Origin: a virus
DNA: 64,000 bases
Direction: 5' to 3' (one strand)
IMG/VR virus record: IMGVR_UViG_3300035670_000179
Span: 2,501-66,500 of that record
In this document: positions 32,156 to 56,345 of the stretch, in pieces
Layout of the letters: each line of letters starts with the position of its first letter
Position numbering within the stretch: position 1 is the first letter of the stretch
Notes under the pieces: generated by a model
What the model saw: the letters and a program-made list of their open reading frames with translations, nothing else
Told to the model about the DNA's origin: nothing
Databases searched by the model: none
Made by a program: the position numbers and the translations under genes

Positions 32156-32316
32156 TATGGTTCAAAATTAATATATGGATAATTGATTTCTGGTTCAGGT
32201 TTACTCACTTCAATTTCAATTATGCCATTCTCATCTTTTACATAATTTACAGAGCAATCACAATCATCTACTATTGCCTCAAGAGTATTTTTATTGATTT
32301 GAATTTTAATAATCAT
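32155..32316 (-). CDS. small hypothetical protein (53 aa, MIIKIQINKNTLE...)
   Basis: Read by hand; TAATG overlaps at both ends. Confidence 0.65.
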   Translation of the reverse strand: MIIKIQINKNTLEAIVDDCDCSVNYVKDENGIIEIEVSKPEPEINYPYINFEP

Positions 32317-35300: not shown

Positions 35301-38300
35301 ACTATTATTATCTCCATCACAGTGAAGAAGAATTTTAGTGTTTGCATCACTAGAGAATTGTGAAGTGGTTGGTGTAAAGGAACTAGAATATCTTGAGATA
35401 TTAGAAATTCTAATCTCGTCTAGATATCCATTCAAACTATCATCTGGTGCAGTTGCTCTACCACCAAACTCAACAGCATTTGTGTTATTAATATCATCAC
35501 TACTAGTTCCAGTTCCTTCAATTGAACCATCAAGGGTTAATTGTAGATTATTGCTACCATCTCTACGGAAAGCAGCGTGATACCAAGTATCAATTGCAAC
35601 AGTTGTAGTTCCAGTAACAGTTGTTAGACCACACTGACCGACAAGTTTATTGTTTGAATCAACTTGAAGGACTAAATCAACACCCTTTGAAATTAGATAA
35701 TGTGTTTCGCCTTGAGCATTAATTCTTACAAAAGTTTCAATTGTGAATGCACCAGTTCCAAAGTCAAAGTCTGCATTTTGTGGAGTTGATAGATAATCTC
35801 CAGTACCATCAAAGGATGCAGAACCAGTACCAAACTTTTGCTGTGCAGTAGAAACTCTTGCTCCACCATAAGCAATTACTGGTTTTCCTGACCTTGAAGT
35901 TGCAGTTTCAAAAGCACCTTCACCTTTTCCAACTAAGGTTACGGTTCCAGTACTGGAATCATAAGAACTTACAGTACCAAAACCAAGTGCCTCACGATAA
36001 GTTACATTTCCACTTGTGGTTCCAGAAACAGTATCAGTAATTCTAAAGGTATTGATACCAACAATATTATTGACGATGTAGAAACCATCAGTTCCACCAC
36101 CACTTGTAAAGTCGGCATAAACTCTGTCGCCCGTAGTTAAACCGTGACCGACCTTTGTAATATCAACAGTTGTTCCGCTTCTTGTATAAGTTCCTGAGTT
36201 GTCAGTTGAATCAAAGTAGTAAACTTGATTATTTGCTGAAGGATTAGTTCCTGTGATGGAAGCAACCTTAATTCTTGCTTTACCCGTGCTTCCTAATCCA
36301 ACATTACCAGCATAAGAATATATACCCTTGTCGGCAAAGTAAGTGAAGCAGTTAACCCACTCAGTTCTTGCTCCATTTGTCATTTCAAGAGCAATATTGT
36401 TTGGTGTAATGAAAGTACACTCATTAAACAACATCGCTGGTTCAAGAGTTGTTGGGTCAACTACGGAACCATCAATTAGAACACCTCTACCTGCCTTATA
36501 AGAAACTGGTGGATTGTGTGCAGTATCAAATCCATATGGGTCAGTTGAGGATGTAATGCTTCCTTTGTTGAGAACTGTTACTCGCTGCATATAAGGTGAG
36601 CGAGAAACAGTCTTCATTCCAGAAGCAAACTTAAATCCATAACCAGGCTCATAGAAGTTACCAATTGTGAGGTCTTCTACTGATGTTTCGCCATTTAATA
36701 CGAAACCATCATTTGTTTTTGTTGCCTCTGTTGGTTGAATAAAGGTTCCACGAATACTTGAACCTTTAACTTCTACTCCCTGAGGAATAACTAATGGGAA
36801 AGTCTCTGTGAATGTTCCAACTCCAATATAAACCTTATCATTTGAAGTTGCAACAGAAAGTGCCTTTTGAATGGTAAGGAATGGTTCATTTAATGAATCG
36901 CCAGGATTAGAATCACTACCTTCTACAGTAACATAATAAGTATTTCCTTGAGAAGCACGAATTCCTGTAAGGTTAGAACCATCTCCAAAATATGCAGTAG
37001 CAGTTACAACACCACTTACTAATACATCTCCTGTTACTGTAAGTTTTGATGTTGGAGAAGTAGTTCCTATTCCAACATATTCATTAGAACCATATGGGGC
37101 AAGTTGAATAGTTCCATCAGCATCAACATCAATACTTGGAATTCCAGATACATCATTTACGGAAAAAATAGAACCACTAGTTAAATTATTGGTAATTGAA
37201 AATATTTGACCAGCAGAAGCTTCAAATGATAATGTTCCGTTATTTAAAGTATCATAAGGAATGATATCAAATATAGTTCCAATACCTAAAGAACCCGTTG
37301 ATGGATTGAATTGAAGTTTATCTGAAGAAACGTATACTGTTTTAGCAATTCCAGATGTATTAGTTACAAATCCAACATATAGATTTGTGTTGGTTACTGA
37401 ATCATCAAGAATAGTTACTCCACCGTCGCTAGAACCTTGGAGACCTTGTAATCCCTGAGTACCTTGCAATCCTTGCAAGCCTTGATTTCCTTGAAGACCT
37501 TGGTTGCCTTGAGTTCCTTGAAGACCTTGAGCACCTTGAGAACCTTGAGTTCCTGTTCCTTGATTACCTTGAGTACCTTGTAAACCTTGAGTACCTTGAG
37601 CGCCTTGAGCGCCTTGAGCACCTTGAGGTCCTTGTGACCCTTGAAGTCCTTGAGAACCCTGTCTTCCTTGTAATCCTTGAGAACCCTGAAGACCTTGATT
37701 TCCTTGAAGACCCTGTAAACCTTGAGTTCCTTGATTACCTTGATTTCCTTGAAGACCTTGATTTCCTTGAAGACCCTGTAAACCTTGAATACCTTGAAGT
37801 CCTTGAGAACCCTGTCTTCCTTGTAATCCTTGAGAACCCTGAAGACCTTGATTTCCTTGAAGACCCTGTAAACCTTGAGTTCCTTGATTACCTTGATTTC
37901 CTTGAAGACCTTGATTTCCTTGAAGACCCTGTAAACCTTGAAGACCTTGATTTCCTTGAGTACCCTGAAGACCTTGAGTTCCTTGTGTTCCTTGAACACC
38001 TTGAGAACCCTGAAGACCTTGATTTCCTTGAAGACCCTGTAAACCTTGAGTTCCTTGTGTTCCTTGAACACCTTGAGAACCCTGAATGCCCTGAGAACCT
38101 TGAAGACCTTGAGTCCCTTGAGTTCCTTGTGCTCCTTGTGTTCCTTGAACACCTTGAGAACCCTGATTGCCCTGAACACCTTGAGACCCTTGAATTCCTT
38201 GTGTTCCTTGTGTTCCTTGAACACCTTGAGAACCCTGATTGCCCTGAACACCTTGAGACCCTTGAATTCCTTGAGTTCCCTGATTTCCTTGAAGACCTTG

Positions 38301-41317: not shown

Positions 41318-44300
41318 TTATCTACTTAGTGCAATAATTAATGGTGTTACTGTATTTAACAAACTTTGACTAAACGCTCTTCCTGTAATTGTTCCTGTAA
41401 CTTGGTTAATTGTTACATCATCACCAATCTTAAAATTACCACCTTGGTCTGTGCTTGTATAAACAATAATTCCACCATTTCTTTGCACAACTTCGTTTTC
41501 TTGAATTACTACACCACCCAAAGCTGGTTTTGCACTATTAATATTATTTCCAGAACCTACCCACTCAAAAGAGTGTGAAGATGTAATTTGGAGACTTACT
41601 CTAGTAAAGTAAACTGTTGTTCCTACACTAACTGTATTATTTAGATTTGATAATAAAGTGATTGTAGAAATACCAGCAGAAGGTAAAGTAGCACTCTGAA
41701 CGGAATAATAGATTGGATATAGAGTTGTAGTTGCGGCAGCACCAACTCCTCCTCCACCACCACTAAATGTTATTGTTGGATTTGTTTTATATTGAGTTCC
41801 TGTACTAATAATATCGACAGAAACAACTCTCCCACCTTCAATATTTGCACTTGCTTCTGCACGAATTCCATTTGGTCCTTCTGGGTCACTTAAGGTTACA
41901 TCTGGTGGAGTAGTATAACCACTTCCACCATCAGTCACTTCAATAGACTGGACAAAGTAATAAAGGTCTCCAAAATAAAGTGCCTGACCATCATAAGGAC
42001 GATAAGAACCAATACCAGAAACTACAATTACATCTTGTTCTAGTTCTGCAATTTGATGTGCTTTTCCTGTATAATGGTAAATTGATTTTGTAGTTTGGTC
42101 TCCAACACCATCAGAAACTAGTCCAAGTCTTCCGAATGAAGAGTTGGAGTTTGTAATATCACACTGACCACCAGAACCAGTAAAGATTGCAATATCATCA
42201 CAAATCGTAAAGATTGATACCAACTGAGAATATGCACCATTAGTAATAGAAACTCCAATACCACCCTGATTGTATTGAGTGTAACTGTCAACGCTCATAG
42301 TACCAGTCACACCAATATCAACTTGGTCTCCAGGCTCTGCATCAAAACCATCTACTTTCATTCCAATACTGTCAGGAACGAAATTAGTGCAGTTTCTTAT
42401 ATAAGGTCCTTGTGTAATTGGTCCTACTCCCTTTGAATATGGAGGAATAACTTTTCCACCAGAAACATAAGTATGAGGAATTGTAGAAACTCCAGTATTC
42501 ACAACGAACGTATTTCCAAAACTTGGAACATCTAAAACTCTAAACTTAAATCCACCAGACTTTCCTGTAGGATATATTGTAGTTGTTCCCGCACCACTAG
42601 TGCAGGAGAATTCTAAGTCTCTAAGACCTACATTTTGCCCCAACTTAACATAAGCTCCTGGTGCAACAATCGTAGTAATACCAGTAACATTATCATAAGT
42701 TGCGTCTGTAACATTTATAGAACGGTCAACAATAAATCCACCCCCAACATAAGTATGAGGAATTGTAGAAATTCCAGTATTAATTTCAAATGCCCCATTT
42801 TCAAATACTTTATCTACAAAGAACTCATATCCATATCTTCCTGAGGGAAATTTTTGAGTAGATGTTGTCAATCCAGAAGAACATTCAAATACCAAATCAT
42901 AAAGTTCAATCAAATCTCCAGGTTTGACTGATAATCCTGGAGCAGATAATATGGTCTTTCCAGTTTCATTCTCATAAGTTGCTGACTGTACATTTACAAT
43001 TGTCGTAAATCCTATTCCACTATTACCTGGATAAGTTGTAGTAATTCCTGCAGTTGAACCTAACCCAACAATCGTGGTTACAACTCCAACTGAAGACCTC
43101 ATAGCAGAAACAACGTCGGTGCAAGAATTTAAGGAATTATTAAATCCAGTTTCATAATCAACCTGCATGGATAGGTCTTTGACCTGTAAAAATTCATTTT
43201 GGAAGTTTTGATACTTCTGAATTGTTCCGCCCGAAACATAAGTGTGTGGAAGCGTTGATTGACCTACGACAACCTCAAAGGTATTTGAGTTGACAACTCT
43301 TTTTACTGGAAAAACATATCCAAGACTTCCTGTTGGGTATGTTAGAATTGTTGGTCCTGATGGACAGGAGAACTGGAGACCTTGAATTTTTACTGGGTCA
43401 TCTAATAGTAATCCGTGATTGGATGCAGTAACAGTAGTAATTCCAGTTAGATTATCATAAGTAGCACCCGATACGTTTATAACAGGTCCTGCTGGATATC
43501 CACCCCAAGTACAATTATTTACAACGGCACGGGCAATATTGAAAGAATAATCCAAAGTAGCAATAGTTTGTTCTACTTCTCCAGGATTTTTAAGAATTTG
43601 TGGTATTAAATTCCAGTCATCATCAAAGTAGAACTTAGCAGCACGAACTGATTTAGAGTTACCACCTCTTGTCATATCAAAACATATTGCTCTCCAAATA
43701 TCCTTTACATCGTCAGCACAATCGTTACTTTCAAGAGTTACTCCAAACTCAATTGGTGGTGCCTGTTCCGTTCCTATTCCAATAATATCTGTGATAATTT
43801 CTGCAAGAGATTCAATTCTTATGATTGTATCTCCACATCCACCAGAAACTAAAATTGGAGAATAACTACTAGTATCTTGTGATAAATTTGTATATTGTGT
43901 TGGATAAGACTCATTATTAATTACAAAGGTTACAATTCCAACTGCATGATTGATTGCATCTACGGTTGCATCACGAATACTGTATCCATTAATATCAGTT
44001 CCCGTAATGTGTAAAAGACCGCCATTACTATCATAATATGTTAATCCTGCACCAATAGATTTCTTATTGCTTCCTGCCTTTAAGTCGTAAGAGATGGAAC
44101 GGAGAATATCTTTAATATCATCTTCACAATCTCCTGGAACAGTAGGAACAACAAATGGTGGAGACTTATAATCTGTAGAAGTAAGAAATCCTATAGTTTC
44201 TGATGCAATATAGTCAATATTTAAATCAATAAGTCTTGCGGCATCTTGTTCTCTGTGACTTCCAGCAAATCCACTAAATCCACTTGTTAAGAAACCAACT

Positions 44301-46594
44301 GCTTCTTTTGCAATATAATCGAGATTGATGCGAACCATTCTTGCCCCATCAAAAAATCTATCAGTCGATACTCCTAATAGTGGTTGTAGTGCAACAATTG
44401 CTGCACCGTTAGTCATATTAGGACCAATAAAACTCATATCAGTAATATGACATCCATTATTAACATGGAATAAGTCACGGTCTAAGAATTTTGGAGTTAC
44501 GACACAGTTACGAAGTTCTGTTCCCTCAACAGATACTGTCTTTGCCAAAACAATCGGGTTCTCTTCAACATAAACTCCTGGAAATACTTTGATGGTGTCA
44601 CCAAAGACTGCAACAGTAGATGCAGATTTAATCGTTCTCTTTGGATAATTTTCTGCTAGTCCAGTATTATTATCATCTCCAGTTTGTGAAACGTAGATTG
44701 TTTTTCCTACTGGTCGGTATGAAGTAATTTCAACAATTCCCTTACCATCAGGTTGTGTTGATTCAATATCAATTCCAATACCTGCAGTAATTTGAGTAAC
44801 AATTCCAGTTAAATTTACACCATTTCCTAAGAAAGTATCTGCAAGTAGATTGCCAGAAACTTGTAATCTTTCTGTTGGATTTGTTGTTCCAATACCAACA
44901 AACTCTGTTTCGGGAATATAAACAAAATTAGTAGCACCAGCAGCAACATTTTCATTATTGAAGATGACTTGCGTATCTTCACCAGCTACTGGTCCCTCTG
45001 TACCTTGAAGACCCTGCAGACCTTGATTTCCCTGAAGACCTTGAAGACCCTGCAGACCTTGATTTCCCTGAAGACCTTGAGTTCCCTGGTCCCCCTGTAA
45101 GCCCTGTAAACCCTGTGAACCTTGTGCTCCCTGAACACCTTGTTCACCTTGGAGACCTTGAGTACCTTGTAATCCTTGAAGACCTTGTGCTCCCTGAACG
45201 CCCTGGTCTCCCTGAATACCCTGTAGACCTTGAGTACCTTGGTCTCCTTGTAGACCTTGTAGACCTTGTGCTCCCTGAACACCTTGCTCACCTTGGAGAC
45301 CTTGAGTACCTTGGTCTCCTTGCAGACCCTGTAAACCTTGTGCTCCCTGAACACCTTGCTCACCTTGAAGACCTTGATTGCCCTGAACTCCCTGATTACT
45401 TAAACCTTGAAGACCCTGAAGACCTTGAACACCTTGGTCTCCCTGAAGACCTTGCAATCCCTGAAGACCCTGAAGACCTTGTAATCCCTGAAGACCCTGA
45501 AGACCCTGAGTTCCTTGAAAATCACTTAAAGGTCCTTGAGCACCTTGAAGACCCTGAAGACCTTGCAATCCTTGAAGACCCTGAAGACCCTGAGTTCCTT
45601 GAAAGTCACTTAACGGTCCTTGAGCACCTTGAAGACCTTGATTGCCTTGAGTTCCTTGAAGACCCTGAAGACCTTGAACACCTTGGTCTCCCTGAAGACC
45701 CTGAAGACCCTGTAAACCTTGAGTGCCTTGGTCTCCCTGAAGACCTTGCAATCCTTGAAGACCCTGAATACCTTGTCTTCCCTGATTTCCTTGTAGACCT
45801 TGTAGACCTTGAAGACCCTGAGAACCCTGAGAACCTTGAAGTCCTTGATTACCTTGAAGTCCTTGATTGCCTTGAGTTCCCTGAAGACCTTGAGAACCCC
45901 TAGACGATGCTTGGCATATTGTAAATTCACATTCACCAACTACGGTATTAACTGCATCTGATTGGTCTGCTTGGTCCATCCAAGCATATATTTCAAGATA
46001 GTCGCCTTGATTTAATTTTATTTGTGTGGTTACTTTTATATTTTTATTGTCGCCTAATGCAGCACCTTCACTATAAGAGGTTGACCTAGTTTCTGTAACC
46101 TCATTACCATTAACAAATATAGAAGCTATTGGAGAGATTCTCCCAGTTCCGGTATTTATAATTCCTATATTTGCATCTATTAAGTAAATACCCTCTATTA
46201 CTACTTGAACTCTTTGAGGATTTACTGTATTTGAATGAACGTATGATTCTAGTTGAGTATAAACAGTATTATCAAAACGAATAGGAACTCTATTCGCATA
46301 AGTTACATTAATATTTTCTGTTAACGTAACCTTGTTAAAATTGCAAGCATTAACATCTTTGTTTAAACCAATATTAAACCAAGTCCATCCACCTTGACCA
46401 TCAGATGTAAGAACATCAAATATATTTCCAGAGCTATTATCTTTGTCGTAAATTCCACCTGATACTTGAATATCATTAAAAGTGGATTTTTCTGAAGATG
46501 TTACATTACCTACTAAGTCACCTTCTGCAGTATCAAATAATCTTACCTTTTTATAAAACCAAGCCTCTTGACCTACAATAAACTTATCTGACAT
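41318..46594 (-). CDS. large collagen-containing fibre/baseplate protein (1758 aa)
   Basis: C1q-like N-terminal domain; about 300 aa GXQ (44991-45900); three ATY.N.TG...L.F.C..G...HTYV.GG repeats; ends PLIIALSR. Confidence 0.88.
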   Translation of the reverse strand: MSDKFIVGQEAWFYKKVRLFDTAEGDLVGNVTSSEKSTFNDIQVSGGIYDKDNSSGNIFDVLTSDGQGGWTWFNIGLNKDVNACNFNKVTLTENINVTYANRVPIRFDNTVYTQLESYVHSNTVNPQRVQVVIEGIYLIDANIGIINTGTGRISPIASIFVNGNEVTETRSTSYSEGAALGDNKNIKVTTQIKLNQGDYLEIYAWMDQADQSDAVNTVVGECEFTICQASSRGSQGLQGTQGNQGLQGNQGLQGSQGSQGLQGLQGLQGNQGRQGIQGLQGLQGLQGDQGTQGLQGLQGLQGDQGVQGLQGLQGTQGNQGLQGAQGPLSDFQGTQGLQGLQGLQGLQGLQGAQGPLSDFQGTQGLQGLQGLQGLQGLQGLQGLQGDQGVQGLQGLQGLSNQGVQGNQGLQGEQGVQGAQGLQGLQGDQGTQGLQGEQGVQGAQGLQGLQGDQGTQGLQGIQGDQGVQGAQGLQGLQGTQGLQGEQGVQGAQGSQGLQGLQGDQGTQGLQGNQGLQGLQGLQGNQGLQGLQGTEGPVAGEDTQVIFNNENVAAGATNFVYIPETEFVGIGTTNPTERLQVSGNLLADTFLGNGVNLTGIVTQITAGIGIDIESTQPDGKGIVEITSYRPVGKTIYVSQTGDDNNTGLAENYPKRTIKSASTVAVFGDTIKVFPGVYVEENPIVLAKTVSVEGTELRNCVVTPKFLDRDLFHVNNGCHITDMSFIGPNMTNGAAIVALQPLLGVSTDRFFDGARMVRINLDYIAKEAVGFLTSGFSGFAGSHREQDAARLIDLNIDYIASETIGFLTSTDYKSPPFVVPTVPGDCEDDIKDILRSISYDLKAGSNKKSIGAGLTYYDSNGGLLHITGTDINGYSIRDATVDAINHAVGIVTFVINNESYPTQYTNLSQDTSSYSPILVSGGCGDTIIRIESLAEIITDIIGIGTEQAPPIEFGVTLESNDCADDVKDIWRAICFDMTRGGNSKSVRAAKFYFDDDWNLIPQILKNPGEVEQTIATLDYSFNIARAVVNNCTWGGYPAGPVINVSGATYDNLTGITTVTASNHGLLLDDPVKIQGLQFSCPSGPTILTYPTGSLGYVFPVKRVVNSNTFEVVVGQSTLPHTYVSGGTIQKYQNFQNEFLQVKDLSMQVDYETGFNNSLNSCTDVVSAMRSSVGVVTTIVGLGSTAGITTTYPGNSGIGFTTIVNVQSATYENETGKTILSAPGLSVKPGDLIELYDLVFECSSGLTTSTQKFPSGRYGYEFFVDKVFENGAFEINTGISTIPHTYVGGGFIVDRSINVTDATYDNVTGITTIVAPGAYVKLGQNVGLRDLEFSCTSGAGTTTIYPTGKSGGFKFRVLDVPSFGNTFVVNTGVSTIPHTYVSGGKVIPPYSKGVGPITQGPYIRNCTNFVPDSIGMKVDGFDAEPGDQVDIGVTGTMSVDSYTQYNQGGIGVSITNGAYSQLVSIFTICDDIAIFTGSGGQCDITNSNSSFGRLGLVSDGVGDQTTKSIYHYTGKAHQIAELEQDVIVVSGIGSYRPYDGQALYFGDLYYFVQSIEVTDGGSGYTTPPDVTLSDPEGPNGIRAEASANIEGGRVVSVDIISTGTQYKTNPTITFSGGGGGVGAAATTTLYPIYYSVQSATLPSAGISTITLLSNLNNTVSVGTTVYFTRVSLQITSSHSFEWVGSGNNINSAKPALGGVVIQENEVVQRNGGIIVYTSTDQGGNFKIGDDVTINQVTGTITGRAFSQSLLNTVTPLIIALSR

Positions 46595-49450: not shown

Positions 49451-50772
49451 AGATTTTGCCTTCCAAAGGTATCTCTAATAAGTTTTAATGATGTATATGA
49501 ATTTTCAGCATCAAAATGATGACAAAGTTCTTTTATGATATATAGACCACTTATTTCAGGGTCATATTCTTGCTTATCGACGCTTTCACTTGTCTTAGGA
49601 AATAAGCATTCTATAGAATCTCCTGCATTTAAATCTAAATTACAGGGAACCATAATATTTATGGCCTGTGTCAAAAGCAGATTATATCTCATCAGAGATT
49701 GTGATTGGTATTTTTCTGGGTCAGAATTTAAACCTTTTGTAACCTCTTGGTCAGTTGTTCCAATATCTAGTATTTGGGTAAAAATTCTTGTTGGTATATC
49801 ACCTAAGGTCTGATTTGAACCATCAGAGACCTTAGGTAATTTTGGTTTACTTCCTAGGGTTTTAACTTTGTTCTTATAATCGCTGAAACTATACTGACCT
49901 TCTTGAGGAGAAGTTACATTAAAATTAACAGGATTGAAAAACATTCTTTGACTTGCATAAGCACCTAGTCTTAGTTTTTCTAAAAGATTTTGGTTTCTAT
50001 CTACATAATAATTCAATATATGAAATTCTTTATCAATTTTTTCTAGACCATCAAAAGATTCGCCAGTAAGAATATACTGATATGTTGCTTTCTTTTCCTG
50101 AGTGATTAAACCATCTAAAGACCTAAAATTAAATCCTTCTTTTGTTTGATAGAATACAAATCCAGCGTTAGAATCTTTTTCATCAGGAACTGCCTTTGAT
50201 GCCAACCAAACTAAAACAGTAAATGGTTTTCTAAGATTGCCAATAAAACCATAAGGATTAGAAGTTTTATCCACCTGATTGATTTTATTTGCTACTAAGT
50301 ATTCTTCAAGTATACTAGTTACAGATTCATCTATTCTAAGGTCTGATGGATATTTTTTTACTACACGAATTGTTTCATTTGTAATCGCTTCTCTAGATAC
50401 TAAATTTAATGTAAAACTTTCTCTTGTTGTGTCTACTACTACATCAGTAATACTGGAGACATAAAGATATCTTTCTGGTGTTGTAAAATCTAAAGAACTT
50501 TTAACATTACTTGAGTTAGGAGCAACTTTTAATACCAGTCTTTCGCCACCTCTTAATGGTAAACCATTATAAATTGACTGCTTATCCTTAGAACCTTTAG
50601 GTGGAGTTATAGTGTTCCCCACGTTCATAATTTTTAATTTGGCAGTAATTGTTGGAGAAAAAATATCCTCATAATAGTCAAAAATTACTGCACCCTGAGA
50701 AATATCTACAGTTCTTGACTGGTCATTTGATTCTAATATTAAGGTTTCGTAAACGGATTTTTGTAATGCCAT
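49447..50772 (-). CDS. baseplate hub protein (gp27/late-control-D-like)
   Basis: Position before gp5; YYEDIFSP; FYQTKEGFNF.S.D; SGLYII.ELCH.F...T.L.LIRD. Confidence 0.65.
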   Translation of the reverse strand: MALQKSVYETLILESNDQSRTVDISQGAVIFDYYEDIFSPTITAKLKIMNVGNTITPPKGSKDKQSIYNGLPLRGGERLVLKVAPNSSNVKSSLDFTTPERYLYVSSITDVVVDTTRESFTLNLVSREAITNETIRVVKKYPSDLRIDESVTSILEEYLVANKINQVDKTSNPYGFIGNLRKPFTVLVWLASKAVPDEKDSNAGFVFYQTKEGFNFRSLDGLITQEKKATYQYILTGESFDGLEKIDKEFHILNYYVDRNQNLLEKLRLGAYASQRMFFNPVNFNVTSPQEGQYSFSDYKNKVKTLGSKPKLPKVSDGSNQTLGDIPTRIFTQILDIGTTDQEVTKGLNSDPEKYQSQSLMRYNLLLTQAINIMVPCNLDLNAGDSIECLFPKTSESVDKQEYDPEISGLYIIKELCHHFDAENSYTSLKLIRDTFGRQNL

Positions 50773-52823
50773 TAGACGTAAGATAAATCCAAGAGAAGTT
50801 TTTGTTTCATAAAGTTATTTAACAAGGTTCCCATAGAGACTGAAGATTTTGTAACCGAAGGCATCATAGGACCTTGAGACATTTGTGGTGCTGGAGACGA
50901 TTGTTCTGGTATAAAGGCAAATATCTCTGCTGGTTTGTTTACTGGAGTTAGTGATTGAAAAAGTGTTTGTTTAGATTGCTGTGATGGGGTTTGAGATATT
51001 TGTGCTGGTGGTGGGGTTTGTGCTTGTGGTTGTGGAGATACTTGTGCTGGTGATGGGGATTGTTGTTGAGGTTGTTGTGTTACTTGTCCTGGAGAAATTT
51101 TACTTGCAGAAGAACCAGCTGCACCGTGAGAAACAGTAATTCCTCTACTACCTATAATTTCAGCTTCTCTACCATATCCACCTCTAGAATAAACTTCACC
51201 AACTGCAAATGGGAATTTAGTAGCAGAACCTGGCTGGGAAGGAAAAGTACGTTTTACATTTGGATTAATTTCTTGAATATCAACTCCAGCACTACTTCTT
51301 GCATCATGAGCTCTTTGTTCTGCTGCAATTTGGTTTCTAAGTGTTCCATCATTTTTAGATGCATATTGATTTAAATTTCCAAACCATACGGTAGAACCTC
51401 TTGCAAGCATTACTTTTACTGCTTGGAAAGATACCTCTCTAATATTTGCTAGTTCTTCTTGTGTTGGATTTGCATTCTTAGAATCAATATGAAAGTGTGT
51501 AGCATATTGTGCTTCACCTTTACTTCCAGAACCACCTTGAATAAAACCACCAGCACCTGTTTGAGGTATCAACTTCATAGTACCTGCTGATACTGCTCTG
51601 GATGGTGAGGGTGAGGATGGTTGTGATTGTTGTGGTTTTGAACCTTCTTTTTGCAAATATTCGTAAGCAATTTTAGATGCTTTCCAACGGTCTCCAAGTT
51701 CTCCCCAAACAATATATCTATAAGATGCTTTTTTTAGTTCTTCATCAGTTGAATTTGGATTCATAAAAACCTTTAAAACACCATCAGACCCACTATTGTA
51801 ATATGGCAAAGACATCTCATGTTTAATCCAATCAATTTGCTCTGAAGCACTTGCGGTTTCTAAAGGTTTTCCTAAAAATTTCTCAGCAGCAACAATTCTA
51901 GACCTATTCCAACTAATTAGTCCTTTATTAATTCCAGCTCCATCATTTAATATCCAGGGTTTTCTTTTTGCTTGCCACACAGATTCTGTCTGTATATTTC
52001 CTGCCAAATATGCAGCTGCCTTAGGTGGAAACCCTTTTTGTGTCAATAATTTAGCACCATCTTTTAAATTTGTAGGATTTGGACCAACTGAACTAGAAGT
52101 AGAACCAGAAGAAGTATCACCATAAGCACCCATGTCTTCAGGAGTACTTCCAAATGGAGGGATTTCTTGACCACTATAAGAACCTATTTGCGTACCATCT
52201 TCAGTAGTTTGAGTTAAAGGTGTAGTAATTAATTTTACTCCTGCCTCTAGTTCACTTCCCATATCATTAATTGAATCGACAAGTTCATCAAATGAATTTC
52301 TTATTCTATTTGAATCATCAAATAAATCAAAGTTTTTTAAATTTTCAATTGCTCCAGTAATCAAACTATATGAGGATTGAAAAACTCTAATTGCTCCTGT
52401 TACAAAACTACCAATAATTCTTCCAGCTTCCTGAAGTCTAGCAATAAATTCCTTTGCCATTCCTTCCCAAGTTGGGAGATTTTTAATAACCCAACCAGCA
52501 GCAAGATATCCTAGAGTATTTACAATTCTGTCAATAAAACTTCCAGTACCATCAACAATACTAGGTTTTGAAGTTATATTTGGAGAAGAAGCAATTTGTT
52601 TTGCTTCCAATTCATCTTCTTGCTCTTGCCTTATAGTAGCATACTCTCTTTTTTTTCTTTCCGTAAGAATTTGTGAACTTATTTTTTCTCTATCCTCAGT
52701 TCTTTCCTTCAATAACTTTGAAAGATTGGTAAGAGAAGTTTGAGTATTAAGTAAAGTTTTTTGAGACTTCTTAATACTTTCATTAAAATTAGTTCTTTTT
52801 GGTAATAAGGTAGTTTGTGCCAT
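50772..52823 (-). CDS. tail-associated lytic/tape-measure-like protein with phage-tail-lysozyme and M23-like domains
   Basis: Coiled coil plus hydrophobic segment; AAAYLAGNIQTES...GLISWN..R...EQIDWI.HE; HFH and H....AGVD motifs. Confidence 0.75.
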   Translation of the reverse strand: MAQTTLLPKRTNFNESIKKSQKTLLNTQTSLTNLSKLLKERTEDREKISSQILTERKKREYATIRQEQEDELEAKQIASSPNITSKPSIVDGTGSFIDRIVNTLGYLAAGWVIKNLPTWEGMAKEFIARLQEAGRIIGSFVTGAIRVFQSSYSLITGAIENLKNFDLFDDSNRIRNSFDELVDSINDMGSELEAGVKLITTPLTQTTEDGTQIGSYSGQEIPPFGSTPEDMGAYGDTSSGSTSSSVGPNPTNLKDGAKLLTQKGFPPKAAAYLAGNIQTESVWQAKRKPWILNDGAGINKGLISWNRSRIVAAEKFLGKPLETASASEQIDWIKHEMSLPYYNSGSDGVLKVFMNPNSTDEELKKASYRYIVWGELGDRWKASKIAYEYLQKEGSKPQQSQPSSPSPSRAVSAGTMKLIPQTGAGGFIQGGSGSKGEAQYATHFHIDSKNANPTQEELANIREVSFQAVKVMLARGSTVWFGNLNQYASKNDGTLRNQIAAEQRAHDARSSAGVDIQEINPNVKRTFPSQPGSATKFPFAVGEVYSRGGYGREAEIIGSRGITVSHGAAGSSASKISPGQVTQQPQQQSPSPAQVSPQPQAQTPPPAQISQTPSQQSKQTLFQSLTPVNKPAEIFAFIPEQSSPAPQMSQGPMMPSVTKSSVSMGTLLNNFMKQKLLLDLSYV

Positions 52824-52824
52824 A

Positions 52825-54600
52825 TTACATTACCACATTATAATTTAATTGTGAGTAAAGCACATAAAAATTATCTGGATTTGATGATGAAATAAGTGGA
52901 ACATCAGTCACAGTCGGTGACATAGGAGGAGTTGTTGGTTTTTGTTGGGGAGCACTAGAGACTATCACATTTGGTGGTGGTTCTTTTGGAGGTTCCATCG
53001 CAGGAGGTGTCGATGGTTTAGCCTGTATCATATCAGGTTTCGCAGTAATCTGTTGAAGTTTAGAAGTATCCACTTTCATTTTTTCAGTTTCCATCAAAAA
53101 TGGTGGAGTATCCGTTTTACCTTCAAGATAATCTATTTCATCTTGTGTCAGTTCTAATTCTTCATAAGTCATTCCTTTTTTCAATCCATCAGAAATCATA
53201 TTCCAATAATCACGTTCTGATTCCCAATATTTTTCTTCTTTTGATTTTTCACCTTCAGGTATAAATGCCAAGTCTTTTGATTCTGGCATCATTGGTTTTT
53301 TTGGTTCATATTTTTCTTTCTTTTCGTTCTCTTTCATAGAGATATTTAATGTTTGATTCTGACCAGAAGGAATCATAGTAGATGTTGGAGTACTTTCTGC
53401 TAATTTTTTAGATTCTTCTGTAGGTACTTTTTGTTCTGGTGGAGTTTTTGACTCAGCCATACTCTCCATATTTGCTGGTAAATTTGGTGGTGTATTTTTT
53501 GAATCAGTACCAGAAGGTTGTGGAGAATTTACTTTTAGGTCTTGAACTTTTGGTTGTTGTGGTTGTGCTTCTGGTGGTTTATTTCCACCTCTTGGCGTAT
53601 TGCCAATTATACCAGCACCTCCACGAAAACCGGGAGCAAAGCTTTCAACCATCTCATCGGCAAATGAAGCAAGTCTAGCAGCACCTCCGATAGGTCCAGG
53701 AGCAAATCCAAGAGCATTTGTAGCGGCATCGGCATATTCTCCGCTTTTCAAATTCATGCCAGCACCAATAGCACTAAACATACCACCAAATATTCCAGGT
53801 CCTCTGCCACCAGAACCTCCAGAAGGTTTAGGACTTGCTGGACTTGGTGGTGATTTTTTTCCTCCACTAAGCATAGATCCTAAACCAGCAGCTGCTGCTC
53901 CTGCTGCTTTAAAAGGAAGTTTAATTGCATTCAAAGTCAAACTAGTAACAGTTCTAATTACTGCACCTATGGCAGTTTTTACTAAACCTAATCCAAACTT
54001 TATAGAAGCAATTACTCCTACACCAATACCAATATTAGATAATAAACTATTTTTAATATCATTTAACGCCTTTTCATCTTTATTTCGCCAAGCATTTAAT
54101 GCTTTAATTCCTTGAAGACCTAACCACCCAAGAAAAAGGCTTGTTAAAGCATTAGCAACGTTTCCAAATATATTTTCTACTTTATTTGATAATGCTTGAA
54201 TAGGAGCAGATATTGCATTCCTTATTTTTTGTTCTAATTGATTTTCAGAATCAATTCTTATTTTTCTTTGAGTACTTTGTACTTCCTGTTTTTGTTCTTT
54301 TGCTAAAAGATTTTGTTCAGATTGAGTATCTGCTTGTATAAGTTTATATACATTAGCAATATTTTGAGAAAGAGTATTAATCTGATTTTGTAAGCTTTGA
54401 AATTGCTGCTGTATTCCCGTTAAAGTAGTTTGATTTTGTTGCTGAGATTCTGCAAACTTCTTAGATTGCTCTGCAATCTCAGTCTTATACCCAATATCAG
54501 TTCCCCTAAAACTAGAAGAAGATACTCTAGAAGAACTAAAAAATGAGTTTCGGTTTTCTCTAGATAAGGGAGAACCTGTTAGTGGGTCTACTTCAGCCAT
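52825..54600 (-). CDS. tape-measure-like protein
   Basis: Long coiled coil, G/A-rich hydrophobic middle, P-rich tail; directly downstream of gp26/gp51. Confidence 0.6.
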   Translation of the reverse strand: MAEVDPLTGSPLSRENRNSFFSSSRVSSSSFRGTDIGYKTEIAEQSKKFAESQQQNQTTLTGIQQQFQSLQNQINTLSQNIANVYKLIQADTQSEQNLLAKEQKQEVQSTQRKIRIDSENQLEQKIRNAISAPIQALSNKVENIFGNVANALTSLFLGWLGLQGIKALNAWRNKDEKALNDIKNSLLSNIGIGVGVIASIKFGLGLVKTAIGAVIRTVTSLTLNAIKLPFKAAGAAAAGLGSMLSGGKKSPPSPASPKPSGGSGGRGPGIFGGMFSAIGAGMNLKSGEYADAATNALGFAPGPIGGAARLASFADEMVESFAPGFRGGAGIIGNTPRGGNKPPEAQPQQPKVQDLKVNSPQPSGTDSKNTPPNLPANMESMAESKTPPEQKVPTEESKKLAESTPTSTMIPSGQNQTLNISMKENEKKEKYEPKKPMMPESKDLAFIPEGEKSKEEKYWESERDYWNMISDGLKKGMTYEELELTQDEIDYLEGKTDTPPFLMETEKMKVDTSKLQQITAKPDMIQAKPSTPPAMEPPKEPPPNVIVSSAPQQKPTTPPMSPTVTDVPLISSSNPDNFYVLYSQLNYNVVM

Positions 54601-54769
54601 TTGCTACACTATTTTTGAGATTTTGCTCTTCAATATATTGCTGTAGAAGTGCAATATAAACATCTCTCTCCCAAGGTATCATATTTTCTAACTCTGTCAA
54701 AGAGTATTTATGATGTTGCATTAATGCAAAATTAACTTGATAATATGACACAAGACTTTCATGTGCCAT
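54593..54769 (-). CDS. gp51: baseplate hub assembly catalyst gp51 (short form; possibly expressed as a gp26 -1 frameshift fusion)
   Basis: YYQVNFALMQHHKYSLTELENMIPWERDVYIALL; read by hand. Confidence 0.85.
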   Translation of the reverse strand: MAHESLVSYYQVNFALMQHHKYSLTELENMIPWERDVYIALLQQYIEEQNLKNSVANG

Positions 54770-54771
54770 TC

Positions 54772-55488
54772 CTAGGCGAAAAAAGATGTTAATCCCTCCA
54801 ATACAACTTCACTCTCAACACCAGTATTTGGATTCTTTATTTTTAATTTATGAGATAACTTAGGCATAGTTTGGAAGAATGTTTCAATTTCCTTAAACTG
54901 ACTTGAACTTAGTTGGTCTATGAACTCAACCAATTCTTTTTTAGTGCATTCTGACGCAGACCAAGACTCTTCTTCATTATAAACTTGATCCATACAAGAA
55001 CAAATCAAATCAAAAGTATCTTCAACTCCTACATCACCCCCGGCAAAGTTAGTTTTAATAAACTCTTCCATAGAAGGATATTTCATTCTAAGAACTAGAG
55101 AATCATCTAACTTAATATCTCTAGAATGTTTAGGATCAATAGTTACTTCTATTTCTTCTAGATTGATAGTTACAGGAACTCTAGTACTTCCATCATCAGG
55201 ACAAGTAATCAAAACCTCAACAGTTTCTCCTACAGATTTTCCTCTAATGTTAAGAAAAATATATTCAATATCAAAAGTTGCAAGTTGATTGACCTTTATT
55301 CCACGAGTAAGAATACAATTTGAAATTACAGTTTTGACTGCTTCTGCAATTTGACTTGCATCTTCACTTTCCTGAGCGATGATAAGAATTTTTTCTTCCT
55401 TAACTAAAAAAGGTCTATACTTTATAGTTTTCTTAGTAGATGGTATAGTCAACTCATAAGTTGGAGTTGCAATCTTTGGTAATGGCAT
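54772..55488 (-). CDS. gp26: baseplate hub subunit/assembly chaperone gp26
   Basis: MPLPKI.TPTY.L..PST...YRPFLVKEEKIL...FDIEY.FL.IR.KSVGE...CPDD...LEGL.SFF. Confidence 0.92.
   Translation of the reverse strand: MPLPKIATPTYELTIPSTKKTIKYRPFLVKEEKILIIAQESEDASQIAEAVKTVISNCILTRGIKVNQLATFDIEYIFLNIRGKSVGETVEVLITCPDDGSTRVPVTINLEEIEVTIDPKHSRDIKLDDSLVLRMKYPSMEEFIKTNFAGGDVGVEDTFDLICSCMDQVYNEEESWSASECTKKELVEFIDQLSSSQFKEIETFFQTMPKLSHKLKIKNPNTGVESEVVLEGLTSFFA
54778..54799 (-). other. candidate programmed -1 frameshift site (SD GGAGG + N10 + T_TTT_TTC)
   Basis: GGAGG-GATTAACATC-TTTTTTC-GCC-TAG; the -1 frame reads F-F-R-L-G-M(gp51). Confidence 0.65.
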
Positions 55489-55514: not shown

Positions 55515-56345
55515 TTAGAATATAGAATTGACGACATTTGCTGCATTCGATACTGCATTTGCAACTCCATTAGCGGCATCTACAATATTACTAAATCCTA
55601 GTTGTTCACTTAATGAGTCTGTTTTTCCTACGATGTATCTATCAAAGCTAAAAGATGCACTTACCTTTAATATTTGAGAATCTGCATAACTAACTCCAAT
55701 CGGATTTAATGCAATCGGAAATAACCCAACAAAGTTATAAATTAATTCTCTTTTATAATCCCTATCAAATTTTACAATTCTAGTTGCATTTGATTTATAA
55801 TCTTCAGGATATTGCATTCTTACATGATAATTTTCTTGATTTTGAAAATTCATATTAGCAACAGTATACGAACCACTAGAAATAAATTCCATCCAACTTT
55901 CTAAGAATATCAAAGACTTATAGTTTTTATCAACATAAAAATCCAAACTTATTTGTTGATACATTTTATAATTAGCAAATGTCTCACTAACACCAGTATA
56001 ATTTCCTTCAGCCTTTGAAGAGGAAAAAGAAGTTGTTGGTAATGATGCTGAATTACATAACAGACCAACATCATCTGTTACAAAAGAAGATGTAACATTT
56101 TTTGCTGCTAAGTAAGTTTTTAATGCATCAGGAATACCACCAAACTGAACCTCATAATGGGTTGTTTGTGCTAGATTAGTTAATAGTGGTTTAAAATCAC
56201 TTATATTTTTTCTTGGAGATGGGGCACCTAATTCTTTTATTTTCCAAACTCCATGCCTATCTTCAGTTACAGACTTTCTAGTATCATCAACACTATCGAA
56301 ATTCCTATTTTTTTCCCACTCAAATGGTCCTGGTCCTTGGGGCAT
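55515..56345 (-). CDS. tail tube/baseplate tube initiator-like protein (gp19/gp54 family)
   Basis: LAQT.HYEV.F...LLC.SASLP...FYVD..Y....F.E.W...FP.....VSY....LKV...F...RY. Confidence 0.75.
   Translation of the reverse strand: MPQGPGPFEWEKNRNFDSVDDTRKSVTEDRHGVWKIKELGAPSPRKNISDFKPLLTNLAQTTHYEVQFGGIPDALKTYLAAKNVTSSFVTDDVGLLCNSASLPTTSFSSSKAEGNYTGVSETFANYKMYQQISLDFYVDKNYKSLIFLESWMEFISSGSYTVANMNFQNQENYHVRMQYPEDYKSNATRIVKFDRDYKRELIYNFVGLFPIALNPIGVSYADSQILKVSASFSFDRYIVGKTDSLSEQLGFSNIVDAANGVANAVSNAANVVNSIF

What the first reader, a model, noticed from the sequence alone, without database searches (positions are those of the whole stretch)
54593..54800. Candidate programmed -1 frameshift fusing gp26 to gp51: a lambda G/GT-like tail chaperone pair in a T4-like phage
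Seen: gp26 ends ...TTG GAG GGA TTA ACA TCT TTT TTC GCC TAG GA ATG(gp51). T_TTT_TTC (54778-54784) is a correctly phased X_XXY_YYZ slippery heptamer one codon before the stop. Slipping -1 reads TTT TTT CGC CTA GGA ATG GCA CAT, an open path into gp51, giving a fusion of about 298 aa. An internal SD-like GGAGG (54795-54799) sits exactly 10 nt upstream of the heptamer. gp51's own ATG has no properly spaced SD (AGGA abuts it). The pair lies directly upstream of tape-measure-like genes. Known: a 5' SD about 10 nt upstream stimulates -1 shifting in E. coli dnaX; lambda G/GT and P2 E/E' use -1 frameshifts just before the tape measure gene; T4 encodes gp26 and a long gp51 separately and is not usually counted among the frameshifting phages. 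Inference: the short cyanophage 'gp51' is the frameshift extension, and the 'SFF' end of gp26 encodes the slippery site.
Basis: partly seen in the sequence, partly recalled or inferred. Interest (0 to 1): 0.85.

Follow-up and report, generated by a model that had tools for sequence, protein, structure and literature searches.

The report
Frameshift site in cyanophage tail-chaperone gene
This T4-like cyanophage very probably makes a short and a long form of one tail-assembly chaperone because some ribosomes slip back one base on a strictly conserved TTTTTTC run, which is real but appears to have been described for T4-like phages in 2022.

Summary
On the minus strand, gp26 (54772-55488, 238 aa) ends in an in-phase T_TTT_TTC (54784-54778). 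The 58-aa 'gp51' ORF lies in the -1 frame, and a slip gives a 298-aa fusion.

Comparative evidence is strong:
- 173 of 174 related loci keep an in-phase T_TTT_TTY.
- Its third positions are the most conserved of 236 codon columns.
- 26 of 150 unique junctions have no start codon for the extension.
- T4 gp51 is itself a gp26-type domain plus this extension, colinear across the junction.
- One-gene genomes have one PF12322 copy; T4 has two.
- 0 of 8 two-gene phages keep the heptamer.
- The N-terminal domain of gp26 folds like the HK97 tail assembly chaperone.

Best reading: a programmed -1 ribosomal frameshift giving a lambda G/GT-like short/long chaperone pair. In this clade a GAGG element and a covarying hairpin that buries the 'start' ATG probably assist it.

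It is not new. Vladimirov, Gautam & Davidson 2022 (Virology 566:9) was not held here. Two citing papers say it identified gp26/gp51 as T4-like tail assembly chaperones with poly-T slip sites. This scan has also flagged the same feature on at least 503 other genomes. Public annotations still miss it. No expression data could be obtained.

The parts
54772..55488 (-). gp26-type gene (238 aa): the short, 0-frame product, equivalent to lambda G and T4 gp26
   Evidence: PF12322 at 250.8 bits against a 24.5-bit cut-off; phrog_150 positions 5-232 of 282. AF2 model pLDDT 95.1. Residues 1-91 match the HK97 tail assembly chaperone 2ob9, Z 7.5.
54795..54799 (-). SD-like GGAGG, 10 nt 5' of the heptamer: a possible upstream stimulator
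   Evidence: GAGG occupies this position in 116 of 150 unique junctions. The Glu codon is GAG in 127 of 158 against 29% GAG elsewhere in the gene.
54778..54784 (-). Slippery heptamer T_TTT_TTC: the proposed -1 shift site
   Evidence: In-phase T_TTT_TTY in 173 of 174 loci. It holds the top two of 236 columns for third-position conservation. In 3 loci the -1 frame opens exactly at its first T. It is absent from 8 of 8 two-gene phages.
54772..54774 (-). TAG stop of the 0 frame, one codon after the heptamer
54745..54769 (-). Predicted hairpin: ATGGCACA, 9-nt loop, TGTGTCAT. It starts 8 nt 3' of the heptamer, and its 5' arm contains the annotated gp51 ATG.
   Evidence: 92.1% of cells paired against 26-47% in slid controls. 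Pair 24:38 is U-A 38, G-C 23, A-U 1, G-U 1, with at least 14 state changes on the gp26 tree. The hairpin is clade-specific.
54593..54778 (-). -1 frame extension (61 codons after the slip; annotated alone as the 58-aa 'gp51', 54593..54769): the T-like C-terminal domain of the long product
   Evidence: phrog_634 E 7e-27, and phrog_150 positions 239-278 of 282. Aligns to T4 gp51 residues 200-246, E 1e-7, including the three codons before the ATG.
55515..56345 (-). Upstream neighbour: tail-tube-family protein (gp54-like tube initiator)
   Evidence: PF23849 E 1.6e-15; phrog_45 E 8e-32. The same neighbour is annotated as tail tube or tube initiator in HTVC008M, phiN3, ValKK3 and AS-zj.
52825..54600 (-). 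Downstream 591-aa low-complexity protein in the gp29 (tape measure) position. Its ATG overlaps the extension's TGA (ATGGCTGA).
   Evidence: No Pfam family. No BLASTP similarity to T4 gp29, though the length matches (591 against 590 aa). The counterpart in HTVC008M is annotated 'putative tail tape measure'.
50772..52823 (-). 683-aa protein with a tail-lysozyme domain and a tape-measure PHROG hit
   Evidence: PF18013 E 1.3e-7; phrog_9570 'tail length tape measure protein' E 1.3e-10.

Best explanation
The gp26-type gene encodes a tail (tape-measure/hub) assembly chaperone that is made in two forms. Most ribosomes stop at TAG and give the 238-aa short form. A minority slip back one base on U_UUU_UUC while tRNA-Phe occupies the P and A sites. 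They read on through CGC CTA GGA ATG... and give a 298-aa long form carrying the 'gp51' domain. In this clade the slip is probably assisted by an upstream GAGG element 10 nt away and a hairpin 8 nt downstream. By analogy with lambda G/GT, the shared body would bind the tape-measure protein and the extension would recruit a tube-family protein. T4 achieves the same pair with two paralogous genes, 26 and 51.
Shown: the conservation, the frame relationship, the homology and the fold.
Inferred: that the slip is ribosomal, its efficiency, and the binding partners.
For: (1) Heptamer conservation. An in-phase T_TTT_TTC or T_TTT_TTT sits 7-13 nt before the stop in 173 of 174 usable loci. These span gp26 identities from 83% down to about 28%. 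It is also present in Aeromonas AS-zj, Vibrio ValKK3, Vibrio VmeM-32, Delftia phiW-14 and Desulfovibrio phage 7757.
(2) Nucleotide-level selection. Among 236 codon columns of 163 unique genes, the two most conserved third positions are the first Phe codon (T in 163 of 163) and the codon before it (T in 162 of 163, across 6 different amino acids). The second Phe is TTC in 153 and TTT in 10, whereas TTC is 30% of Phe codons elsewhere.
(3) Frame. The extension is in the -1 frame in every case. In L031, L034 and S-N03 the -1 frame opens exactly at the heptamer.
(4) No obligatory start. 26 of 150 unique junctions have no ATG/GTG/TTG in the first 13 extension codons, yet they keep the conserved N-terminal motif. 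The ATG was gained or lost at least 20 times on the gp26 tree. In AS-zj, VmeM-32, ACP17 and 2050H1 the extension is unannotated.
(5) Architecture. T4 gp51 is PF12322 (residues 1-201) plus this extension, filling phrog_150 13-280; T4 gp26 fills 14-235. The trans-frame peptide aligns to T4 gp51 residues 200-246, E 1e-7.
(6) Copy number. T4 has 2 PF12322 genes; 8 of 8 complete one-gene genomes have 1.
(7) Natural control. 0 of 8 two-gene phages keep the heptamer: FF is encoded GAR TTC TTT or is lost.
(8) Ribosomal rather than transcriptional. In E. coli U_UUC outranks U_UUU, and U_UUU_UUC is among the more efficient heptamers (PMC4066793, passages). GAGG is enriched at -15..-11. The hairpin shows covariation.
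(9) Fold. gp26 residues 1-91 match the HK97 tail assembly chaperone 2ob9 (Z 7.5, rmsd 3.9, 85 aligned) and the prophage proteins 3fgx and 3klu (Z 7.9, 7.3); the next row is 5.0. Foldseek gives 2ob9 prob 0.63.
(10) Lambda model and the phrase 'except T4': PMC5009743 (passages).
Against: - There is no direct evidence of the long product: no RNA, ribosome-profiling or proteomic data were available.
- The stimulators are not universal. GAAG replaces GAGG in 30 of 150 junctions.
- Strong downstream structure is confined to junctions that carry the ATG (median -12.2 kcal/mol, z -2.7, n=100). Without the ATG it is weak (-4.9, z -0.7, n=43). The hairpin may therefore serve to mask the ATG and not to stimulate slipping.
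- Hairpin covariation rests essentially on one pair, inside coding sequence.
- Ackermannviridae (3 of 3) and Vibrio K444 have only a T_TTY tetramer. K444, ValKK3 and YC have a TAATG overlap that would allow coupling.
- The fold match is moderate: Z below 8, Foldseek E 1.2.
[quoted passage not shown] I could not read the paper to see whether that refers only to T4's two genes.
Confidence: 0.8

Rival explanations
1. Transcriptional slippage. RNA polymerase adds one extra U in the T6 run, producing an mRNA subpopulation that encodes the same 298-aa fusion without any ribosomal slip.
For: The site is a homopolymer run. Some lineages have T7 or T8 (phiN3, VmeM-32, HTVC008M). U7 and A7 runs are said to be avoided in E. 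coli genes, possibly because of such slippage (PMC4066793, passage). [quoted passage not shown] The protein product would be identical, so sequence comparison cannot fully separate the two.
Against: The run is capped at six T's by a C in 153 of 163 unique genes, although TTT is the preferred Phe codon (70%) elsewhere; polymerase slippage would favour longer runs. The run is always in X_XXY_YYZ phase. GAGG lies 10 nt upstream and a hairpin 8 nt downstream, spacings typical of ribosomal -1 shifting. Ackermannviridae keep only four T's. PRFect's authors read the 2022 title as referring to T4's two-gene solution.
Confidence: 0.1
2. No fusion is made. The 58-aa gp51 is produced as a free small protein by termination-reinitiation or coupling at TAG-GA-ATG, and the T run is only an Phe-Phe motif.
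For: An ATG lies within 5 codons of the slip site in 104 of 150 unique junctions. TAATG overlaps occur in K444, ValKK3 and YC. Many GenBank records annotate a separate 'baseplate hub assembly catalyst'.
Against: 26 of 150 junctions have no start codon in the first 13 codons, and some have none for 26 or more, yet the upstream residues remain conserved. The ATG is evolutionarily labile, with at least 20 changes, while the heptamer is fixed. The ATG has no spaced SD and sits in a hairpin arm. This model does not explain the invariant T at the third position of a variable preceding codon, nor the loss of the slippery codons wherever the long form has its own gene. The three codons before the ATG align to T4 gp51.
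Confidence: 0.05
3. Both routes operate in ATG-bearing clades such as the window's. The frameshift gives the fusion, and the hairpin gates a low level of independent initiation that gives a free T-domain.
For: Strong structure co-occurs with the ATG: 83% of ATG junctions have MFE of -9 or lower, against 26% of ATG-less ones. The stem sequesters the ATG.
Against: The ATG may exist only because it complements the conserved CAT of the Ser-Tyr codons in the 3' arm. There is no SD. ATG-less clades do without it.
Confidence: 0.05

Closest known systems
[quoted passage not shown] The paper is not held; I know it only from citing passages in PMC10885494 and PMC12846349.
   Same: The same protein family (PF12322). 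The same short/long logic. The same poly-T sequence at the 3' end of the short gene. T4 carries a short gene plus a long fused gene instead of a frameshift.
   Different: Probably nothing essential, so the window is one more member. I could not verify whether that paper covers cyanophages, the clade-specific hairpin and GAGG, the lability of the ATG, or the Ackermannviridae tetramer variant, nor which mechanism its title refers to.
Phage lambda gpG/gpGT and the conserved -1 frameshift of tail assembly genes (Levin 1993 and Xu, Hendrix & Duda 2004 are recalled. The model as summarised in PMC5009743 was read as passages.)
   Same: Two products share an N-terminal chaperone body. The extension is in the -1 frame, and the slip site lies just before the stop. 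The gene sits between a tube-family gene and tape-measure-like genes. The N-terminal domain has a TAC-like fold.
   Different: The heptamer differs: U_UUU_UUC here against G_GGA_AAG in lambda (recalled). There is no sequence similarity. gp26 is about twice the size of typical TACs, with an extra C-terminal half containing a Cys-rich knuckle in many relatives. In T4 the pair was historically tied to baseplate-hub assembly (PMC3004832).
E. coli dnaX -1 frameshift (recalled; the heptamer context is discussed in PMC4066793)
   Same: Three-part signal: an SD-like element about 10 nt upstream, a slippery heptamer, and a downstream hairpin.
   Different: dnaX uses A_AAA_AAG, and its shift truncates the product rather than extending it. 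Here the stimulators are lineage-specific, not universal.

Membership tests
Frameshifted tail assembly chaperone pair (lambda G/GT type) | Second ORF in the -1 frame of the first, overlapping or abutting its 3' end, with no need for its own start | tested here: met
   The extension is in the -1 frame in all loci examined. 26 of 150 junctions lack any start codon in the first 13 codons.
Frameshifted tail assembly chaperone pair (lambda G/GT type) | Conserved in-phase slippery heptamer X_XXY_YYZ within the overlap | tested here: met
   T_TTT_TTY in 173 of 174 loci. Highest synonymous-site conservation in the gene. The shift window is pinned to the heptamer in 3 loci.
Frameshifted tail assembly chaperone pair (lambda G/GT type) | Position between the tail tube gene and the tape measure gene | tested here: met
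   A tube-family gene lies upstream (PF23849). Downstream are a 591-aa low-complexity protein and a 683-aa protein with a tape-measure PHROG hit. The tape-measure identity is positional only; there is no similarity to T4 gp29. The context differs in phiW-14, ACP17 and Ackermannviridae.
Frameshifted tail assembly chaperone pair (lambda G/GT type) | TAC fold of the shared N-terminal body | tested here: met
   AF2 model pLDDT 95.1. VIA-align: 2ob9 (HK97 TAC) Z 7.5, 85 of 104 residues; 3fgx Z 7.9; 3klu Z 7.3; next row 5.0. Foldseek: 2ob9 prob 0.63 but E 1.2. This is moderate strength only, and it covers only residues 1-91 of 238.
Frameshifted tail assembly chaperone pair (lambda G/GT type) | Two products actually made in a set ratio; both absent from virions | not testable with these tools
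   No expression or proteomic data were reachable.
Frameshifted tail assembly chaperone pair (lambda G/GT type) | Body binds the tape measure protein; extension binds the tube protein | not testable with these tools
   Inferred from lambda only (PMC5009743).
PF12322 T4_baseplate (T4 gp26/gp51 hub assembly chaperones) | Match to the family model above its curated cut-off | tested here: met
   250.8 bits against a 24.5-bit cut-off, profile positions 2-219 of 219. T4 gp26 scores 215.6 bits and T4 gp51 177.5 bits.
PF12322 T4_baseplate (T4 gp26/gp51 hub assembly chaperones) | The long form carries the gp51 C-terminal extension colinear with the PF12322 domain | tested here: met
   The extension matches phrog_150 positions 239-278 and phrog_634 at E 7e-27. 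It aligns to T4 gp51 residues 200-246, E 1e-7. It is met only if the -1 shift occurs.
dnaX-type three-part -1 signal | SD-like element about 10 nt 5' of the heptamer and a hairpin 5-9 nt 3' of it | tested here: met
   In the window, GGAGG lies 10 nt upstream and an 8-bp hairpin lies 8 nt downstream. Across relatives this is only partial: GAGG in 116 of 150, and the hairpin mainly in ATG-bearing junctions.

The most novel reading that the evidence does not exclude
In the window's clade the annotated gp51 'start codon' is not a start codon. It is the 5' arm of a covarying hairpin that stimulates the frameshift and/or masks initiation, and it has been gained and lost at least 20 times while the heptamer stayed fixed. 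The -1 frameshift is the ancestral state of the whole T4 superfamily. T4's two-gene solution arose by duplication of an already fused gene, because T4-type gp26 proteins still end FF-[K/E]-[L/I/V]-[L/I/M], resembling the first trans-frame residues. If the 2022 paper does not contain these points, they refine a known system and would settle ribosomal against non-ribosomal biogenesis.
Probability: 0.35. Interest if true: 0.4.

Novelty: already known. Interest (0 to 1): 0.3.

Why it matters
The feature explains two old puzzles. Cyanophage 'gp51' is only about 20% of the length of T4 gp51, and gp51 appears 'missing' from Aeh1-type phages (PMC3037559). T4 was also listed as the exception to the tail-chaperone frameshift of long-tailed phages (PMC5009743). 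The practical value is for annotation. None of the 60 sampled phage records names the extension a tail assembly chaperone, and 14 leave it unannotated. The family is very large, with 4,640 clusters at 50% identity. As biology it appears to be already published.

Tried and rejected
- Sequencing runs: no RNA holder was listed and all holders are kept as contigs. Expression and U insertion in the T run could not be examined.
- Complex prediction of the 58-aa extension with the gp54-like tube protein: no verdict (score 0.00, mark 0.32, partner's own fold uncertain). It says nothing either way.
- The 2022 Virology paper is not held. Four further citing papers gave only the reference entry.
- Literature searches for a cyanophage gp26/gp51 frameshift returned nothing relevant.
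- The search for homologous proteins returned only close relatives (at least 74% identity) and no fused forms within its length band. The 'longer' option was not run.
- A profile search of PDB sequences found nothing meaningful (best E 0.11). NCBIfam found no family for gp26 or the extension.
- BLASTP of the 591-aa protein against T4 gp29 found no similarity.
- RNAalifold alone recovered only 6 pairs of the hairpin, with a weak energy of -3.07 kcal/mol.
- A search of the window's own record for gp19 (PF06841) found none. The record is a 30%-complete fragment, so the one-copy count of PF12322 in it is not informative by itself.
- The idea that the hairpin is a universal stimulator was rejected: it is largely absent from ATG-less clades.
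Full report
WHAT IS THERE

The genes lie on the minus strand. The gp26-type ORF (54772..55488, 238 aa) ends ...TTG GAG GGA TTA ACA TCT TTT TTC GCC TAG. Its features are:
- The heptamer T_TTT_TTC occupies 54784..54778 in X_XXY_YYZ phase.
- GGAGG occupies 54799..54795, 10 nt upstream of the heptamer.
- The 58-aa 'gp51' ORF (54593..54769) starts two bases after the stop, in the -1 frame, with AGGA abutting its ATG.
- Translation in the -1 frame from the heptamer reads FFRLGMAHES... and is open to the TGA at 54595..54593. A slip would give 237 + 61 = 298 aa.

The surrounding genes form a hub and tape-measure module. Upstream is a tail-tube-family gene (55515..56345; PF23849, phrog_45). Downstream are:
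- a 591-aa low-complexity protein whose ATG overlaps the extension's stop;
- a 683-aa protein with a tail-lysozyme domain and a tape-measure PHROG hit;
- a tail protein;
- a gp5-like hub/lysozyme.

The bare string TTTTTTC is not rare in this AT-rich window: 31 matches against 39.7 expected. All the weight rests on comparison with relatives.

CONSERVATION OF THE SLIP SITE

I collected 181 related loci plus the window. They came from IMG/VR contigs found with four gp26 queries and from named phages. Some contigs were fetched twice. Seven loci were unusable because they ran off the contig or matched only partially.

Of the 174 usable loci, 173 have an in-phase heptamer:
- T_TTT_TTC ending 10 nt before the stop: 160
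- T_TTT_TTC at 7 nt: 2
- T_TTT_TTT at 7 nt: 10
- T_TTT_TTT at 13 nt: 1
- none: 1 (Vibrio phage K444)

A codon alignment of the 163 unique genes has 236 columns.
- The two most conserved third positions in the whole gene are the first Phe codon (T in 163 of 163) and the preceding codon (T in 162 of 163), although that codon encodes six different amino acids. These beat the invariant Met columns.
- The second Phe is TTC in 153 and TTT in 10, whereas TTC is only 534 of 1,769 Phe codons (30%) elsewhere.

Eight more distant phages were then examined.
- Five carry the heptamer: Aeromonas AS-zj, KVP40-like Vibrio ValKK3, Vibrio VmeM-32, Delftia phiW-14 and Desulfovibrio phage 7757.
- Three Ackermannviridae (Bue1, YC, 2050H1) keep only a T_TTC tetramer. 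The extension is still in the -1 frame.

In L031, L034 and S-N03 the -1 frame opens exactly at the first T of the heptamer, and the 0-frame stop follows 7-10 nt later. This pins the shift site to the heptamer.

THE EXTENSION DOES NOT NEED ITS OWN START

Among 150 unique junctions:
- 104 have an ATG within five codons of the slip site.
- 26 have no ATG, GTG or TTG in the first 13 codons. Some have none for 26 or more.
- The N-terminal motif (L-x-H-x-x-L-x-x-Y-Y-x-x-N-F) stays conserved in the start-less junctions.

Parsimony on a gp26 tree needs at least 20 gains or losses of the ATG. The heptamer class changes only 5 times. In AS-zj, VmeM-32, ACP17 and 2050H1 the extension has no nearby start and is unannotated.

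HOMOLOGY TO T4

T4 genes 26 and 51 are divergent. T4 gp51 (249 aa) is a full PF12322 domain (residues 1-201, E 3.9e-52) plus a C-terminal extension, and it fills phrog_150 positions 13-280. T4 gp26 (208 aa) fills 14-235.

The window's gp26 fills positions 5-232 and its 'gp51' fills 239-278 of the same profile. The trans-frame peptide aligns to T4 gp51 residues 200-246 (E 1e-7). That alignment includes the three codons lying between the slip site and the ATG.

Copy number is complementary. T4 has two PF12322 genes. S-SRM01, Syn9, HTVC008M, phiN3, S-N03, Yut2, K444 and ACP17 have one each.

As a natural control, I examined the gp26 3' end in T4 and seven other two-gene phages: Melville, KPV15, QL01, phiR1-RT, Kimel, RB49 and Aes012. 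None of the 8 keeps the heptamer. FF is written GAR TTC TTT or is replaced by FM, FV or FL.

MECHANISM

One extra U added by RNA polymerase would give the same protein, so sequence alone cannot fully exclude transcriptional slippage. Three observations favour the ribosome.
- The run is capped at six T's by a C, against the gene's codon preference. In E. coli the tetramer ranking is A_AAG >> U_UUC > U_UUU, and U_UUU_UUC is listed among the more efficient heptamers (PMC4066793, passages read).
- GAGG occupies -15..-11 in 116 of 150 junctions. The Glu codon there is GAG in 127 of 158, against a 29% background.
- In the window's clade (66 distinct sequences, alignment A1) a hairpin starts 8 nt after the heptamer. 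92.1% of cells are paired against 26-47% in slid controls. Pair 24:38 is U-A 38, G-C 23, A-U 1, G-U 1, with at least 14 state changes on the tree.

There are caveats. The covariation is essentially one pair inside coding sequence, and RNAalifold alone gives a weak consensus. Strong downstream structure tracks the presence of the ATG: median -12.2 kcal/mol and z -2.7 for n=100, against -4.9 and z -0.7 for n=43 without it. The ATG forms part of the 5' arm. It may exist only because it complements the conserved CAT of the Ser-Tyr codons. The hairpin may therefore mask initiation as much as stimulate slipping.

FUNCTION

An AlphaFold2 model of gp26, built from 127 diverse sequences, is confident: pLDDT 95.1, pTM 0.89.

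A search of about 48,000 PDB representatives puts three chains on top, all aligned to model residues 1-96:
- 3fgx: Z 7.9
- 2ob9, the HK97 tail assembly chaperone: Z 7.5, rmsd 3.9, 85 residues aligned
- 3klu (YqbN): Z 7.3

The next rows are at Z 5.0 and 4.8. Foldseek also lists 2ob9 with prob 0.63 but E 1.2. This is a moderate match.

Together with the gene order, it supports a tail assembly chaperone of the lambda G/GT kind. In lambda, the body binds the tape measure and the T domain binds the tube protein (PMC5009743, passages). The binding partners here are inferred only.

PRIOR ART

Three background papers frame the question.
- Leiman et al. 2010 list T4 gp26 and gp51 as hub assembly chaperones of unknown mechanism (PMC3004832, passages).
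- Sullivan et al. 2010 noted that cyanophage gp51 is about 20% of the T4 length and that gp51 is 'missing' in Aeh1. The word 'frameshift' occurs 0 times in that text (PMC3037559).
- Atkins et al. 2016 call G-T frameshifting conserved in long-tailed phages 'except T4'.

However, PRFect (PMC10885494) and the phage Adele paper (PMC12846349) both cite Vladimirov, Gautam & Davidson 2022. PRFect cites it for the statement that some T4-like phages carry a short and a long fused TAC gene instead of frameshifting. The Adele paper cites it for poly-T slippery sequences in the TAC-N genes of T4-like phages. The 2022 paper itself is not held, so I saw nothing of its text. The RefSeq record of Acinetobacter phage Kimel already labels gp26 and gp51 'tape measure protein assembly chaperone'.

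This scan has also noted the same feature 569 times on at least 503 other genomes, with the same reading. One of those notes reported no published account, which the citations above contradict.

Public annotation lags behind. None of the 60 sampled records names the extension a tail assembly chaperone, and 14 annotate nothing there.

VERDICT

The feature is a real recoding site but is already known. Confidence that a fusion is made at the T run is about 0.9. Confidence that the slip is ribosomal is about 0.8. No expression data were obtainable, and the one complex prediction gave no verdict.

Noticed in passing
window 54593-54600 (-); also L081, L082, L087, L194: The stop of the -1 extension overlaps the start of the next (tape-measure-position) gene (ATGGCTGA). 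Overlaps of 1-8 nt recur in S-SRM01, Syn9, Yut2 and ValKK3 by their annotated coordinates. Ribosomes that have shifted therefore terminate right on the next gene's start, while unshifted ones stop about 170 nt upstream. This may be translational coupling specific to the shifted ribosomes.
   Followed up: partly
L196, L199, L200 (Ackermannviridae) and L088 (Vibrio K444): These keep the -1 extension but only a T_TTC or T_TTT tetramer (ATT TTC, GCT TTC, GTT TTC, CTT TTT). In 2050H1 the extension has no nearby start and is unannotated. They may represent a weaker single-tRNA slip or a different route.
   Followed up: partly
L083 and L201-L207 (two-gene phages): T4-type gp26 proteins run 3-4 residues past FF (FFELL, FFKLI, FFKIMS, FFKVM). 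This resembles the first trans-frame residues (FF-R-L/I-G/A-L/M) and T4 gp51 (VF-K-L-L). It hints that the short paralog descends from an already fused gene.
   Followed up: partly
L193 (Aeromonas AS-zj), L197 (Vibrio VmeM-32), L089 (Acidovorax ACP17): The gp51-like extension is present in the -1 frame but has no start codon and no annotation. This probably explains the reported absence of gp51 from Aeh1-type phages (PMC3037559).
   Followed up: partly
window 55405-55411 (-): A second in-phase heptamer, T_TTT_TTA, lies at codons 26-28 of gp26, within the conserved RPFLVKEE motif. Its conservation and the -1 frame there were not examined.
   Followed up: no
window 10979-16789, 32316-40964, 41318-46594 (-): Three giant ORFs of 1,936, 2,882 and 1,758 aa. 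The last hits many tail-fibre and collagen-like PHROGs.
   Followed up: no
alignment A2; L087, L089, L193-L200: Many distant gp26 relatives carry a CxxC...CPxCG zinc-knuckle-like motif near the C-terminus. The window's cyanophage protein lacks the second pair. T4 gp51 gives weak zinc-ribbon hits.
   Followed up: no
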